Shown: positions 15,775 to 19,069 of the stretch, piece by piece
How positions within the stretch are numbered: position 1 is the stretch's first letter
Layout of the letters: every line of letters begins with the position of its first letter
Source of the DNA: a virus
Strand: one strand, 5' to 3'
DNA length: 64,000 bases
Virus record (IMG/VR): IMGVR_UViG_3300050139_000358
Coordinates: 7,459 to 71,458 of that record
Notes under the pieces: generated by a model
What the model was told of the DNA's origin: nothing
Seen by the model: the letters and a program-made list of their open reading frames with translations, nothing else
Databases searched by the model: none
Position numbers and translations under genes: made by a program

Positions 15775-16007
15775 TCCAGTGCGATCTTTGCGGGGTGGAC
15801 AACGGGAATTATGACTTCGGTCGTGATTGTTGCCTTGTTCGATTTGTGCTGCACGTACCGACCAAGACGATGCGCGCCGGATATTTGGCGTGGTGGATGC
15901 GGAAATATGGAGCTGATCGCACTGAGAGGGTGAAAGCGCTGGTTGAGAAAGCCTGGGCGGACAAAATAGCCAGTGCGAAGCAACAGGTGATTGGGGGCGG
16001 AAAGTGA
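15771..16007 (+). CDS. Hypothetical protein (Cys motif)
   Basis: ATG 15771 overlaps the previous stop. CDLC...CC. Confidence 0.55.
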   Translation: MIQCDLCGVDNGNYDFGRDCCLVRFVLHVPTKTMRAGYLAWWMRKYGADRTERVKALVEKAWADKIASAKQQVIGGGK

Positions 16008-16318
16008 AGCAGAGCGCACCAGAAGCCATGTTTGCCCTGCATTGCCGGGCGCACAAACTGACCCCGCTGGCTGAGTTCAAGTTTCACCCGGTCAGAAAGT
16101 GGCGTGCTGACTTTGCATTCCCTGCGCACATGATCCTGGTTGAGATCGAAGGGGGGGTCTGGATACAGGGTAGGCATCAGACCGGAAAGGGGTTCAGCGC
16201 GGACTGCGAGAAGTATTCGCATGCTGCATTGTTGGGGTACCGGGTATTCCGCTTCACGCCGGATATGGTGGCAAGTGGCGAAGCAGTTCAAATGATCAGG
16301 GAGGCGGTTAATGGATGA
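16004..16318 (+). CDS. PD-(D/E)XK endonuclease, DUF559/Vsr-like
   Basis: EFKFHPVRKWRADFAFP..ILVEIEGG..H...DCEKY. Confidence 0.8.
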   Translation: MKQSAPEAMFALHCRAHKLTPLAEFKFHPVRKWRADFAFPAHMILVEIEGGVWIQGRHQTGKGFSADCEKYSHAALLGYRVFRFTPDMVASGEAVQMIREAVNG

Positions 16319-16502
16319 GGCTGAATGCGCAGAGAAGTACGAGCAAGATGAACGCGATCGGATGTTAGAGAAGGCGCATGCGGCAGCAGTAGTAGAAATT
16401 CCACTTGAGTACGTTTTCCGGGAGTGCGGTGAGCCAACAACAGGTGGTAGGTGGTGCGGAGCTGGGTGTCGAGATATTTACGTTCGGAGATTCGGGATAT
16501 GA
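16311..16502 (+). CDS. Small hypothetical protein (degenerate Zn finger)
   Basis: ECGEP...RWCGAGCRD. RBS GGAGG. Confidence 0.55.
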   Translation: MDEAECAEKYEQDERDRMLEKAHAAAVVEIPLEYVFRECGEPTTGGRWCGAGCRDIYVRRFGI

Positions 16503-16527
16503 AAACGTCAACAATTGGAGGTGTCAA

Positions 16528-17064
16528 ATGAATGCAGTCGCTGAACAATTAAAATTCACCAGCCTTGATAGCGCGGTCATTTCGGCTTGTGAAATGAATC
16601 CGGCGGATAGCGATGCGGCGGCGGAGTGCCTGTTAGGAATTCTTGCCCAGGATAAGCGGCTATATGACCAGTCCCACAACTACCTGATCGAAATAGCGGT
16701 CAAGGATCTGGTGAGCAGCAAAATAACAGTGCAGCGGCGCGGGCTGTTCCGTGAAGCGCCGGTAAAAAATCAAAGTAATGCCTGCCTGCGCAAACTGTCG
16801 TCAGTCATAGCCGCTCGCGTCGGCCTGCTGAATTACCCGCTCAAGCGCGCTGGCAAGGTGCTGGCTGACGCGACCATTCAAGACCTGAAAGCAGAAGCCG
16901 CCATGCACCGGGCAAAAGCCAAGGGGAATACCAGCAAGGCTGCGTGGCTGGAGTCGATTGTCGAACACATGCAGCGCAAAAATTCCGCAACGGTGGCGGA
17001 TGCGCTTGACCATCAAGACTTGTACGGCCTCGCCATGAAGGCGGGCGTGAGCGACCTGGCTTGA
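16528..17064 (+). CDS. Hypothetical protein immediately upstream of the guide-like array
   Basis: GGAGGT RBS and ATG 16528. Its stop abuts the array. Confidence 0.75.
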   Translation: MNAVAEQLKFTSLDSAVISACEMNPADSDAAAECLLGILAQDKRLYDQSHNYLIEIAVKDLVSSKITVQRRGLFREAPVKNQSNACLRKLSSVIAARVGLLNYPLKRAGKVLADATIQDLKAEAAMHRAKAKGNTSKAAWLESIVEHMQRKNSATVADALDHQDLYGLAMKAGVSDLA

Positions 17065-17072
17065 TGATTTAC

Positions 17073-17483
17073 GAGCGGTGCGGCCGTCCCAGTCATGATG
17101 CCCAGTGTCTGATTGCCGAACTGCTCACCTTTTTGCTTGTTTCGGCCAAACTGCTTATGACGCCCAAAGGCCCGGTGTTGAGACAAGCAACCTTTTTACG
17201 GATGGCGGCCATTGGTTGTCTGATGCCCAAGAGAAGCATGCCGTCATCCACCCGTTTTTACCATAAGGAGATTTCCATATGAGCGCAGTACAAACAGTTT
17301 CGAGAGGGAAGGCCAGTTTGGCACTGATGCCCATTGAATATGTGCCCACCCCCTCTCACCCTATTGGAGTCGTCGGCCATATCGCCATTGATGCCCACGT
17401 TGCAGATGCCGATGACTCCAACCATTTTGACGCGGACGGCCACAACCGTAGTGATGCCCTGGAATCCGCTGCCGCCCGCGTCA
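17073..17483 (+). ncRNA. TIGR-like stem-loop guide RNA array, 6 units with two 9-nt spacers each
   Basis: Units at 17073-17126, 17133-17190, 17200-17249, 17302-17357, 17364-17421, 17428-17483. Core GGCCA-N9-TGAYGCCCA-N9-TG, closed by unit-specific stems with G-U pairs. Confidence 0.85.
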
Positions 17484-18364
17484 CCCTGATCGATGCCATC
17501 CGTGAGCACTACCACCAGTTCAAAGACCTGCAAAGCGCGGAGACGCGCCTGACGTTGCAGATCAAGGCGCTGTGCCGCCGCGCGTGCGGCGAACAGGTGA
17601 AAGAAAATACGGAAGACGAGGAAGACAAGGCCGCCAAGACAAAGGCGGACAATGTGTATGCCGAGGTGGTCAAGTCCATCAAAGACGGGACGGAAGACGC
17701 TTTGAGCGCAGAGGCGCAAGTCGTGTCGCAAGTGGCGATCCCGCTGATGGCGGCGCGGGCCAGCATTCACCGCGCCAGCCTTGGCCCTAAGGGAGAGGGT
17801 GAAAAGCTGTGCAAGCAGTTGACGCACATTGTTCCGTTTGTCGAGTCCATTAAGGGGTTCTCCTATGGCGGGCTGTCGATGATTATCGGAGAGGCGGGCG
17901 ACTTATCCAACTACGCGAATCCGGCAAAGCTGTGGAAGCGCATGGGGCTTGCGCCATTCACCAAGGGCGATAGGGTTCAATGCGGAAAAACATGGCGCAC
18001 CGGGGGCGGGCTGAATGCGGAAGACTGGACAGCCTTCGGATATTCGCCGCGCCGCCGCTCCGTCATGTTTCAGATCGCCGACAGCATGATGAAGCACCAG
18101 ATCAGAACCGATAAGGACGAGGACGGCAAAAAGCTGGAAACATCGATCGCAACTGGGTATTACGGCGAGGTGTATTTGGCTCGCAAGCAGTATTTGATTG
18201 AGCGCAATAAGGGAGAAGGCTTAACTGTGCGACCTGCCGCAAAGATCAACAAAAAGAACGAAGCGACCTCGGTCAGTCTTGGGAAAATTCACCATCAGGC
18301 GAAGCAATTTACTGAAAAGCGTTTGCTGCTTGACCTATGGAAGGCATGGAACCAGCGCCCATAA
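17279..18364 (+). CDS. IS110/Nop-domain RNA-binding protein without nuclease domain (TasA-like)
   Basis: Coiled coil, then FVESIKGFSYGGLSMIIGEAGDLSNYANPAKLWKRMGLAP...GYSPRRRS...YLARKQY...KRLLLDLWKAW (Transposase_20/Nop-like). No DEDD RuvC or HNH seen. AAGGAG RBS. Confidence 0.8.
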   Translation: MSAVQTVSRGKASLALMPIEYVPTPSHPIGVVGHIAIDAHVADADDSNHFDADGHNRSDALESAAARVTLIDAIREHYHQFKDLQSAETRLTLQIKALCRRACGEQVKENTEDEEDKAAKTKADNVYAEVVKSIKDGTEDALSAEAQVVSQVAIPLMAARASIHRASLGPKGEGEKLCKQLTHIVPFVESIKGFSYGGLSMIIGEAGDLSNYANPAKLWKRMGLAPFTKGDRVQCGKTWRTGGGLNAEDWTAFGYSPRRRSVMFQIADSMMKHQIRTDKDEDGKKLETSIATGYYGEVYLARKQYLIERNKGEGLTVRPAAKINKKNEATSVSLGKIHHQAKQFTEKRLLLDLWKAWNQRP

Positions 18365-18442
18365 ATTAAAACGCCCCCATAAAATAATTATGAGAGCGCC
18401 CCCGACAAGGTGAATCTTAGCATAATTTTGAATGGAGGCAGA

Positions 18443-19069
18443 ATGTCGTTAACTTCAAATAGGGTAGATCAGGCCAATGTAGTCAAGAACATTGGTAAAA
18501 GGATGAGGGAGGCGCGCGACCTTTGCAATTTGTCGCAGAGCGTGGCCGCCAAGCGGTTCGGGTACTCAAACCCTTCGAAGCTGTCGAAGGTTGAGGGGGC
18601 GACCGATACCAACTCTGTCCCGTTGTGGCTGATTGTTGAGGCATCACGAATTTATGAAGTCTCGATAGACTACCTGTTTGGAGTTTCGGACGATTGGGAA
18701 ACAGGCGCCCGGATGACGCAAGAGCGCGATGTGTCCCAATGGCTGTTCAATACCTGGGAGAAGATGCGCACGCGCGATATGTCTGTGTTGAAGGAGCTAC
18801 ATAGCGACGTAGAGCTGATGGATAGGGTGACTACCCTGACGCTGGAGCACTTGGAAAACATTGACGCGGCGATGCGGCGTTACATCGAACTGAATCCGCA
18901 GTTTGAGGATATGCGGGGCGGTGTCAGGCTGGAGGCGACTATTGTTGAGGCTCTGGGTTATGCGCGCGAGTCCAGAAAGAAAATGGATCGGTTTCGCGGG
19001 AAGTGCAAAAACAGGGCGGCGGAAAGCAATCAACTGACGCTGTGCCTGGAATCAGAGAAGGAAGCTTGA
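18443..19069 (+). CDS. XRE-family HTH transcriptional regulator
   Basis: IGKRMREAR...LSQSVAAKRFGYSNPSKLSKVE...VSIDYLFG. GGAGG RBS. Confidence 0.8.
   Translation: MSLTSNRVDQANVVKNIGKRMREARDLCNLSQSVAAKRFGYSNPSKLSKVEGATDTNSVPLWLIVEASRIYEVSIDYLFGVSDDWETGARMTQERDVSQWLFNTWEKMRTRDMSVLKELHSDVELMDRVTTLTLEHLENIDAAMRRYIELNPQFEDMRGGVRLEATIVEALGYARESRKKMDRFRGKCKNRAAESNQLTLCLESEKEA

What the first reader, a model, noticed from the sequence alone, without database searches (positions are those of the whole stretch)
17064..17483. The guide array is fully covered by translationally coupled reading frames
Seen: units 1-3 lie in a 72-aa ORF (17064-17282). Its ATG overlaps the upstream stop (TGATG) and its stop overlaps the effector start (ATGA at 17279). 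Units 4-6 encode the first ~68 aa of the effector after a strong AAGGAG RBS (e.g. GHIAIDAHVADA, GHNRSDALESAA). Every loop repeat contains TGA, yet none is in frame. Units 1-3 are followed by T-runs and resemble terminators. Inference: ribosome transit may suppress termination, and guide excision would destroy the effector mRNA, giving autoregulation. Spacer changes would also alter the protein N-terminus.
Basis: partly seen in the sequence, partly recalled or inferred. Interest (0 to 1): 0.7.

Follow-up and report, generated by a model that had tools for sequence, protein, structure and literature searches.

The report
Guide RNA array translated inside tasA
A prophage carries an RNA-guided TIGR-TasA system whose six guide units lie in reading frames, three of them inside the start of the effector gene itself, a layout recently reported for this family.

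Summary
Positions 17073-17482 hold six stem-loop tigRNA units: a variable 12-bp stem, GGCC, a 9-nt spacer, UGAUGCCC, a 9-nt spacer, and GCC. The 361-aa gene at 17279-18364 encodes a nuclease-less Tas protein (TasA type).

Units 4-6 lie inside its 5' end. No canonical in-frame start exists between codon 22 and codon 93, which sits in an invariant block, so at least units 5 and 6 must be translated. They encode a predicted disordered tail.

In close relatives the spacer-coded residues are replaced, the rest is kept, and the frame stays open. Across 47 non-redundant related loci the tas frame is open over the whole abutting array in 40. Embedded units avoid the phase that puts the loop TGA in frame.

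A September 2026 preprint (Xu et al.) already reports tigRNAs embedded in tas coding sequence, so this part is a new member of a known kind.

The 72-aa ORF over units 1-3, with its TGATG and ATGA overlaps, exists. It has no called homologue and is only weakly beyond chance. Family data give suggestive support for such coupled array ORFs (P about 0.02).

Anti-termination and autoregulation were not tested.

The parts
16528..17064 (+). Upstream gene (178 aa, no known family). Its stop TGA at 17062-17064 overlaps the ATG of the 72-aa ORF.
   Evidence: ORF list. No Pfam, PHROG, NCBIfam or PADLOC match. tblastn finds relatives upstream of tas in 13 other fetched loci, for example L104 at 48% identity.
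17064..17282 (+). 72-aa ORF covering units 1-3. Its translation is unproven.
   Evidence: No homologue among called proteins. This frame is open in 84 of 2000 shuffles.
17073..17126 (+). tigRNA unit 1 (stem-loop), followed by ACC and TTTTT at 17130-17134.
   Evidence: R2 match at 43.5 bits; fold; tail.
17135..17188 (+). tigRNA unit 2, with loop variant TGACGCCC, followed by TTTTT at 17193-17197.
   Evidence: R2 match at 40.7 bits; fold z = -3.3.
17198..17251 (+). tigRNA unit 3, followed by TTTTT at 17255-17259.
   Evidence: R2 match at 45.5 bits; fold z = -3.8.
17264..17270 (+). TAA that closes the tas frame (17264-17266), overlapping the Shine-Dalgarno AAGGAG (17265-17270).
17279..18364 (+). 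tasA, 361 aa. Residues 1-68 are encoded by units 4-6; the core starts at about residue 69.
17302..17355 (+). tigRNA unit 4, inside tasA (codons 8-26, phase 2).
   Evidence: R2 match at 46.9 bits.
17366..17419 (+). tigRNA unit 5, inside tasA (phase 0; reads GH...DA).
   Evidence: R2 match at 47.2 bits; fold z = -5.0.
17429..17482 (+). tigRNA unit 6, inside tasA (phase 0).
   Evidence: R2 match at 51.9 bits.

Best explanation
This is a stem-loop-type TIGR-TasA locus in a lambdoid-like prophage, lying between the replication/NinB module and the terminase genes.

The six units are tigRNA genes. Each has a variable 12-bp stem that closes a 30-nt loop holding two 9-nt spacers around the conserved UGAUGCCC. 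TasA has a coiled coil and a Nop-like RNA-binding domain and no nuclease. By analogy with tested TasA proteins, it would bind these RNAs as a dimer and sit on DNA that matches both spacers, acting as an RNA-guided DNA binder or repressor (inferred).

Units 4-6 are part of the tasA coding sequence. Translation starts at ATG 17279 behind AAGGAG and reads through them, giving a disordered tail of about 56-68 aa whose spacer-coded residues are free to change (shown by sequence comparison and modelling, not by protein data).

Units 1-3 lie in the leader between a conserved upstream gene and tasA, and each is followed by a T-run. The 72-aa frame over them may be read by ribosomes arriving from the upstream gene and hand them on at ATGA, but this step is unresolved. 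I put it at about 0.35-0.4.
For: Units.
- 5 exact motif matches against 0.08 expected.
- Six R2 matches, and only six, in the 64-kb window.
- 90.3% of stem cells are paired against 63.7% in shuffles, and 7 of 12 pairs show compensatory change.
- The same architecture appears in relatives: 578 units were analysed, 568 of them on the tas strand.

Protein.
- A profile of the family hits the TasR chain 9mty_A at E = 2.8e-13 and TasH at E = 5.7e-4.
- The best Foldseek matches are TIGR-TasR and TasH, then IS621.
- NCBIfam TIGR_Tas_endo matches at E = 2.2e-14, below its cut-off.
- No nuclease domain was found.

Translation of units 4-6.
- AAGGAG lies 8 nt before the ATG, and there is no canonical in-frame start between codons 22 and 93, while I74, R75, E76 and L91-L93 are conserved.
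- Residues 1-56 have pLDDT below 50 and the core is confident.
- The close relatives P0003, P0004 and P0005 keep the frame and length but replace the spacer-coded residues.

Family.
- The tas frame is the longest open frame in 43 of 47 loci (P = 1e-16). It is open over the whole array in 40 of 47, against 20 and 5 for the other two frames.
- Phases of embedded units are 80/28/5, against 36/36/40 for units outside the tas frame.
- Unit periods are multiples of 3 in 30 of 39 cases inside, against 15 of 33 outside.
- A start codon with a Shine-Dalgarno match of at least 5 nt lies upstream of at least one unit in 28 of 33 loci.

Prior report of embedded tigRNAs and of TasA as a repressor: Xu et al., sections 5, 11 and 12.
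Against: - There is no RNA or protein data for this locus, so expression, processing and the N-terminus are inferred.
- Units within a locus, and loci among themselves, are related, so the family counts are not independent events.
- Five loci (L010, L081, L099, L106, L113) place a good Shine-Dalgarno and start right at the core with the array outside it, so embedding is not obligatory.
- No target of the spacers was found in the 71-kb provirus at 2 or fewer mismatches in 18 nt.
- For the 72-aa ORF: no homologue among called proteins, although two relatives at about 88% identity exist. I saw no Shine-Dalgarno by eye.
- Outside arrays are open as often on the reverse strand (17 of 29) as on the + strand, and their units are not depleted of stop triplets.
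Confidence: 0.85

Rival explanations
1. Full coupling chain. Ribosomes pass from the upstream gene (TGATG) through the 72-aa ORF into tasA (ATGA). This traffic melts the unit hairpins, prevents termination or polarity at the T-run hairpins, and competes with tigRNA excision, so guide production and TasA synthesis regulate each other.
For: - Both overlaps exist.
- Among 25 related loci with outside units just upstream of the tas start, the frame that would end in NTGA is open for at least 150 nt in 12, against 4 for the other non-tas frame and 6.9 expected from shuffles (P = 0.018). In 9 of these 12 the base after the start codon is A.
- ATGA junctions between an array-spanning ORF and tas occur in L043, L061, L066 and L097, and GTGATG in L052.
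- Upstream outside arrays of at least 3 units are fully open in 13 of 19 cases, against 7.0 expected (my sum of the per-array values printed). Downstream arrays are open in only 4 of 10, against 3.3 expected.
- T-runs are frequent after upstream outside units (31 of 61) and rare after embedded units (18 of 113; Fisher P = 1.5e-5).
Against: - The 72-aa ORF has no homologue among called proteins.
- Chance gives this frame open in 4.2% of shuffles and any frame in 12.9%.
- Triples of outside units are open in 13 of 17 cases, against 10.6 expected and 12 of 17 on the reverse strand.
- A at the base after the start codon is common at tas starts in general (47 of 101). Overlap with an open frame of at least 150 nt is not significantly commoner with arrays (10 of 26) than without (16 of 75; Fisher P = 0.12).
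- Outside units are not depleted of stop triplets.
- The simple terminator scan finds none on the + strand, because the 30-nt loops are far outside the usual 3-8 nt.
Confidence: 0.35
2. Units 1-3 are a plain non-coding leader array and the 72-aa ORF is a chance frame. The hairpin plus T-run ends serve 3'-end formation or processing of tigRNAs, and tasA is translated only from its own Shine-Dalgarno.
For: - Strong AAGGAG with an 8-nt gap.
- Each unit is stop-free in 2 of 3 frames on average, so open frames over three units are common.
- No ORF homologue.
- A second ORF, in the tas frame (17105-17266), also spans units 2-3, which shows how easily frames stay open here.
- Xu et al. report a CUU motif at the stem base as the processing boundary. 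Units 1 and 2 have CCUUUUU there.
Against: - The two exact stop/start overlaps.
- The family bias of the NTGA frame.
- Long array-spanning ORFs in L068 (9 units, P = 0.04) and L097 (7 units, P = 0.02).
Confidence: 0.5
3. TasA starts downstream of the array at a non-canonical codon (CTG 17486 or ATC 17489/17498), and the open frame over units 4-6 is untranslated.
For: - Many family members are only 240-300 aa and start near residue 69.
- The first 56 residues are predicted disordered.
Against: - No ATG, GTG or TTG and no Shine-Dalgarno there.
- The strong Shine-Dalgarno sits at 17265.
- The tas frame is kept open over arrays in 40 of 47 loci, with phase bias and periods in multiples of 3.
- The start with the best Shine-Dalgarno lies upstream of units in 28 of 33 loci.
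Confidence: 0.04
4. It is an IS110-family transposase with a bridge RNA rather than a TIGR-Tas system.
For: - Weak Pfam Transposase_20 match (E = 0.0019, below the cut-off).
- PHROG 'transposase' match at E = 3.5e-4.
- IS621 and ISCro4 appear among the Foldseek matches.
Against: - No DEDD/RuvC N-terminal domain.
- Six tandem dual-spacer units instead of one bridge RNA.
- TasR and TasH rank above IS110 recombinases in both sequence and fold searches.
- NCBIfam names TIGR_Tas.
Confidence: 0.02

Closest known systems
Stem-loop TIGR arrays with TasA (Faure et al. 2025, Science, PMC12045711, passages read; PlTasA structure in Guan et al., bioRxiv 10.64898/2026.08.11.744272, passages read)
   Same: Tandem units, each with two short spacers around a conserved central motif, flanked by variable palindromic stems. 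They lie on the tas strand next to a nuclease-less Nop-domain protein with a coiled coil, in a phage.
   Different: Half of the array lies inside the tasA coding sequence. RNA processing, binding and targets are untested here. Sequence identity to solved Tas proteins is only about 13-15%.
Intragenic tigRNAs in tas coding sequence (Xu et al. 2026, bioRxiv 10.64898/2026.09.09.750476, sections 5, 11 and 12 and passages read)
   Same: Stem-loop units at the 5' end of tas that do not break the frame and encode a disordered segment. The preprint proposes the same link between tigRNA maturation and Tas translation.
   Different: In the text I read, the preprint does not describe separate array-spanning ORFs joined to tas by stop/start overlaps, the phase bias, the periods in multiples of 3, or the loss of T-runs in embedded units. 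Its figures and supplements were not seen.
IS110-family recombinases with bridge RNA (IS621)
   Same: A related C-terminal RNA-binding fold, and a structured guide RNA encoded next to the gene, with two target-reading segments.
   Different: No DEDD catalytic domain, and an array of six units rather than one bridge RNA. This is not a mobile element by itself.
Translationally coupled overlapping genes in phage operons (ATGA and TGATG junctions; general knowledge, recalled)
   Same: The same 4-nt and 1-nt stop/start overlaps on both sides of the 72-aa ORF.
   Different: The middle 'gene' is made of guide RNA units, has no homologue and has no visible Shine-Dalgarno.

Membership tests
TIGR-Tas system, stem-loop type | Tas protein with a coiled coil and a Nop-like C-terminal RNA-binding domain | tested here: met
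   The family profile hits TasR 9mty_A at E = 2.8e-13 and TasH at E = 5.7e-4. The top 10 Foldseek matches are all TasR or TasH. NCBIfam TIGR_Tas_endo matches at E = 2.2e-14, 54 bits against a cut-off of 100. Long helices and a mixed C-terminal domain are modelled with pLDDT of 80-96.
TIGR-Tas system, stem-loop type | Tandem units with two 8-12-nt variable spacers around a conserved motif, flanked by variable palindromic stems | tested here: met
   Six units with periods of 62-64 nt (104 nt across the tasA start). The 12-bp stem is 90.3% paired against 63.7% in shuffles, and 7 of 12 pairs are compensatory. In 36 units from 26 loci and the window, pairing is 94.4% against 63.1%, but these rows were picked from model hits and so lean towards the structure.
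TIGR-Tas system, stem-loop type | Array adjacent to tas and on the same strand | tested here: met
   All six window units are on the + strand. 568 of the 578 units analysed across loci lie on the tas strand.
TIGR-Tas system, stem-loop type | [quoted passage not shown] | tested here: inconclusive
   The loop UGAUGCCC contains a box-C-like UGAUG, and GGCC/GCC are conserved at the stem base. I did not map box C and box D against the published models.
TIGR-Tas system, stem-loop type | Units are transcribed, processed and bound by Tas, and the two spacers direct DNA binding | not testable with these tools
   No RNA holder was listed. No target was found in the provirus at 2 or fewer mismatches.
TasA subtype (no nuclease) | Absence of RuvC or HNH domains | tested here: met
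   Pfam gives only a weak Transposase_20 match. Residues 1-56 are disordered and are followed directly by the coiled coil.
Intragenic (CDS-embedded) tigRNAs | Units inside the tas ORF without a stop, encoding a disordered segment | tested here: met
   Units 4-6 span codons 8-68, none of their loop TGA triplets is in frame, and residues 1-56 (codons 8-56 of the units) have pLDDT below 50. In the family, 40 of 47 loci are open over the whole abutting array.
IS110-family transposase with bridge RNA | N-terminal DEDD (RuvC-like) catalytic domain | tested here: not met
   No such Pfam match at E up to 0.1. The N-terminus is disordered and then coiled coil.
Translationally coupled gene pair | Stop/start overlap with an upstream ORF that is itself a conserved, translated gene | tested here: inconclusive
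   The overlaps are present. The ORF has no homologue. Chance probability is 4-13%. The family bias has P = 0.018, but Fisher P = 0.12 against loci without arrays.
Intrinsic (Rho-independent) terminator, units 1-3 | G+C-rich hairpin with a short loop followed by a T-run | tested here: not met
   The stem and TTTTT are present, but the loop is 30 nt. The scan (loops of 3-8 nt) reports no + strand site in 16300-18500.

The most novel reading that the evidence does not exclude
In this clade of phage TIGR-TasA systems, guide arrays upstream of tasA are kept translatable on purpose. Ribosomes are handed from the upstream gene through an array-made ORF into tasA by 1-nt and 4-nt stop/start overlaps. 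This traffic carries expression across a long, hairpin- and T-run-rich array (against termination or polarity) and competes with tigRNA folding and excision. One transcript is therefore partitioned between guides and effector, and every spacer change rewrites a peptide.
Probability: 0.3. Interest if true: 0.7.

Novelty: new member of a known kind. Interest (0 to 1): 0.5.

Why it matters
TIGR-Tas systems are compact RNA-guided DNA binders and cutters that need no PAM, and they are now being developed as tools. How their guides are made is still open, especially for the stem-loop type.

A locus where guide units double as coding sequence limits which spacers can exist: no in-frame stops, and fixed lengths. 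It also ties guide supply to effector synthesis.

The family counts here are simple rules that can improve array and start-codon annotation. They are the phase bias, the periods in multiples of 3, the loss of T-runs inside the gene, and the Shine-Dalgarno upstream of the units. They point to testable regulation.

For this window alone, the result is a well-supported annotation of a prophage TIGR-TasA locus.

Tried and rejected
- **Self-targeting.** Spacer B of unit 5 (with its flanks, 11 nt) is identical to tasA 17552-17562. In the geometry A + rc(B), spacer A matches 6 of 9. A family-wide test gave no excess of that geometry: 9 hits with 3 or fewer mismatches, against 11, 5 and 8 in three control arrangements, over 334 units in 114 loci. 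I treat the match as chance.
- **Targets in the provirus.** No site with 2 or fewer mismatches in 18 nt in the 71,458-base record. I ran no search of large collections, because 18 specified bases would give chance hits there.
- **Open frames over outside arrays.** Triples were not enriched (13 of 17 against 10.6; 24 of 200 shuffles reach it). Arrays of at least 3 units were open in 17 of 29 cases, against 10.4 or 11.9 expected, but equally often (17 of 29) on the reverse strand. Stop triplets are not depleted in outside units.
- **Homologues of the 72-aa ORF.** None.
- **RNA evidence.** No RNA holder was listed.
- **Relatives in sequencing runs.** Contigs from two runs cover 16500-18400 at about 88% identity (204 and 230 other letters). 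The tool printed only 40 of 354 differences and 12 of 30 indels, so I could not tell whether the 72-aa frame is intact in them.
- **Database scans.** Rfam: no match at E up to 1 in 16000-19000. PADLOC: no match.
- **Promoter and terminator scan.** Nothing on the + strand.
  - 5 of the 155 matches were not stored in alignment A6.
  - 12 loci (L108-L111, L114, L117-L120, L122, L125, L128) were judged duplicates by contig range and not searched with R2.
  - L022 is the window's own locus.
  - Of 137 sources with an HSP (136 loci and the window segment), only the 81 whose HSP starts within 8 residues of core residue 1 were used, 70 after removing identical ones.
Full report
**What is there.** Positions 17073-17482 of the + strand hold six repeated units. 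The motif GGCC-N10-TGATGCCC occurs five times exactly, against 0.08 expected, and 0 of 100 shuffles reach five. A sixth copy has TGACGCCC. Aligned without gaps, each unit has four parts:
- a 12-bp stem of variable sequence whose last pairs are GGC/GCC;
- a 30-nt loop made of C/A, a 9-nt variable segment, TGATGCCC(A), a second 9-nt variable segment and T;
- the 3' arm of the stem;
- a short linker.

Each unit folds into this hairpin on its own, with z-scores from -1.9 to -5.0. Over the six copies, 90.3% of stem cells pair, against 63.7% in shuffles and 32-54% when the partner is slid. Seven of 12 pairs show changes on both sides. Start-to-start spacing is 62, 63, 104, 64 and 63 nt. The long gap holds a Shine-Dalgarno and a start codon.

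**The gene.** The ORF at 17279-18364 (361 aa) has only a sub-threshold Pfam Transposase_20 match.
- A profile of it and 19 relatives hits the solved TIGR-TasR chain 9mty_A at E = 2.8e-13 and TasH at E = 5.7e-4.
- NCBIfam TIGR_Tas_endo matches at E = 2.2e-14, below its cut-off.
- An AlphaFold2 model (mean pLDDT 79, pTM 0.72) has residues 1-56 below pLDDT 50, followed by long helices and a confident C-terminal domain.
- The best Foldseek matches of that model are TasR and TasH complexes, followed by IS621 and ISCro4.
- No nuclease domain was found.

This is therefore a TasA-type protein with a stem-loop TIGR array, the architecture described by Faure et al. (PMC12045711, passages read). The neighbours are phage genes: primosomal or replication-initiation protein, P-like helicase loader, NinB, an unknown 178-aa gene, the array with tasA, an HTH protein, and the small and large terminase subunits. 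The record is a provirus of 71,458 bases.

**Are units 4-6 translated?** Three lines of evidence say yes.
- AAGGAG (17265-17270) lies 8 nt before ATG 17279.
- The only in-frame ATG, GTG or TTG codons are at residues 1, 14, 17 and 22, and then 93. Residue 93 lies inside an invariant block (L91, T92, L93), and I74, R75 and E76 are nearly invariant. With canonical initiation, at least units 5 and 6 are therefore coding.
- The three closest relatives (87, 84 and 66% identity) keep the same N-terminal length and an open frame, but differ exactly where the spacers lie. Spacer-coded residues are identical in 2 of 27 and 3 of 27 comparisons. The figures are 40 of 54 for stems, 24 of 27 for GGCC/GCC, 14 of 27 for the loop and 46 of 62 for linkers.

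**Family test.** I fetched 21 genome loci, 80 metagenome loci and 34 viral loci encoding relatives. I built a 54-nt covariance model and found 583 units, of which 578 were stored; 568 of those lie on the tas strand. Seventy non-redundant loci had a reliable core anchor, and 47 of them have units abutting the core.

| Measure | Result |
|---|---|
| tas frame has the longest open stretch upstream | 43 of 47 loci (P = 1e-16 against one third) |
| Frame open over the whole abutting array | 40 of 47 for the tas frame; 20 and 5 for the other two |
| Phase of embedded units (0 / 2 / 1) | 80 / 28 / 5; phase 1 puts the loop TGA in frame |
| Phase of units outside the tas frame (0 / 2 / 1) | 36 / 36 / 40 |
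| Unit periods that are multiples of 3 | 30 of 39 inside; 15 of 33 outside |
| Start with a Shine-Dalgarno of at least 5 nt lies upstream of at least one unit | 28 of 33 loci |
| Shine-Dalgarno and start sit at the core, with the array outside | 5 loci |

The counts are not phylogenetically independent.

**Prior art.** Xu et al. (bioRxiv 10.64898/2026.09.09.750476; sections 5, 11 and 12 and passages read) make four relevant statements:
- the encoded segments are typically disordered;
- embedded tigRNAs of a Bifidobacterium TasA are expressed;

They also show that TasA acts as an RNA-guided repressor. A search for 'tigRNA' together with 'translational coupling' found 0 papers. Only the Xu preprint combines tigRNA with 'intragenic' or 'reading frame'.

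**The 72-aa ORF over units 1-3.** It exists. Its ATG shares the A of the upstream stop (TGATG) and its TGA overlaps the tasA ATG (ATGA). The upstream gene is real, since relatives of it lie upstream of tas in 13 other loci.

Evidence against a function:
- No homologue among 5.8 billion called proteins, although two relatives at about 88% DNA identity exist.
- The frame is open in 84 of 2000 shuffles, and any frame in 257 of 2000.
- Units are stop-free in two of three frames on average.
- The tas frame is also open over units 2-3, and is closed only by the TAA at 17264.
- Outside units show no depletion of stop triplets.
- Reverse-strand frames are open as often as + strand frames.

Evidence for a function:
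- Upstream outside arrays of at least 3 units are fully open in 13 of 19 cases, against 7.0 expected (my sum of the values printed). Downstream arrays are open in 4 of 10, against 3.3 expected.
- Array-spanning ORFs end in ATGA at the tas start in L043, L061, L066 and L097, and in GTGATG in L052.
- Among 25 loci with outside units next to the tas start, the NTGA frame is open for at least 150 nt in 12. The other non-tas frame is open in 4, and 6.9 are expected (P = 0.018).

However, such overlaps are common at tas starts whatever lies upstream: 16 of 75 loci without arrays against 10 of 26 with them (Fisher P = 0.12). I rate real coupled translation at about 0.35-0.4.

**T-runs.** TTTTT follows units 1-3 and does not follow units 4-6. 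In the family, TTT occurs in the 12-nt tail of 31 of 61 upstream outside units, 8 of 27 downstream units and 18 of 113 embedded units (Fisher P = 1.5e-5, inside against outside). This is a real difference between embedded and free units. Whether the hairpin plus T-run terminates transcription is open. The 30-nt loops are far from canonical, and the scan finds no + strand terminator. Xu et al. place a CUU processing motif at the stem base.

**Mechanism.**
- Shown by sequence, covariation and comparison: there are six stem-loop guide units, a TasA gene, and embedded units under frame constraint.
- Inferred from published TasA work: the RNAs are processed and bound by a TasA dimer, which binds DNA matching both spacers and represses or blocks it.
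- Unknown: the targets (none in the provirus), the promoters, whether the same transcript serves as mRNA and as guide precursor, and any autoregulation.

**Verdict.** This is a clear new member of a recently described kind. The coupled array ORF is a suggestive and unreported extra that needs the relatives' DNA or a simple reporter test.

Noticed in passing
window 17397-17407 and 17552-17562: An 11-nt stretch comprising spacer B of unit 5 and its flanks is identical to a stretch of tasA's own coding sequence in the conserved LTLQIK block. In the published targeting geometry, spacer A matches 6 of 9 next to it. A family-wide test showed no excess of such self-matches, so it is probably chance.
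   Followed up: yes
window 16528-17064: The 178-aa gene just upstream of the array has no family in Pfam, PHROGs, NCBIfam or PADLOC. tblastn finds relatives upstream of tas in 13 other fetched loci (L104 at 48% identity). It may be a conserved partner of this TasA clade.
   Followed up: partly
window 17105-17266: In the tas reading frame, units 2 and 3 are also open and sit in the preferred phase 0 (reading GQ...DAQ and GH...DAQ). The frame is cut only by the TAA at 17264-17266 that overlaps the Shine-Dalgarno. The present start may have arisen inside a once longer embedded array.
   Followed up: partly
L068 1883-2401; L097 2327-2920; L052 1484-2749; L043 1840-2349: Long ORFs run through 9, 7, 8 and 7 guide units outside the tas frame. 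Those of L097, L052 and L043 end by overlapping the tas start codon; that of L068 starts 4 nt before the upstream gene's stop.
   Followed up: partly
alignment A4, columns 11/44 (for example L068 3100-3153, L089, L105, L124): The conserved closing pairs covary: GGCC...GCC becomes GACC...GUC in 4 of 36 units.
   Followed up: no
window 16500-18400 in coded runs X2 and X4: Two metagenome runs from other studies hold contigs that cover the whole stretch at about 88% identity. Spacer positions are replaced, for example at 17086-17089. The tool's listing was cut, so the frames could not be checked.
   Followed up: partly
related loci, downstream of tas (for example L097 3770-4799, L132 3975-4441, L135 3706-3924): Many relatives also carry arrays downstream of tas. 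These are not enriched for open frames (4 of 10, against 3.3 expected).
   Followed up: partly
window 18410-19069: A helix-turn-helix protein (PHROG transcriptional regulator or repressor) lies directly downstream of tasA and before the terminase small subunit.
   Followed up: no
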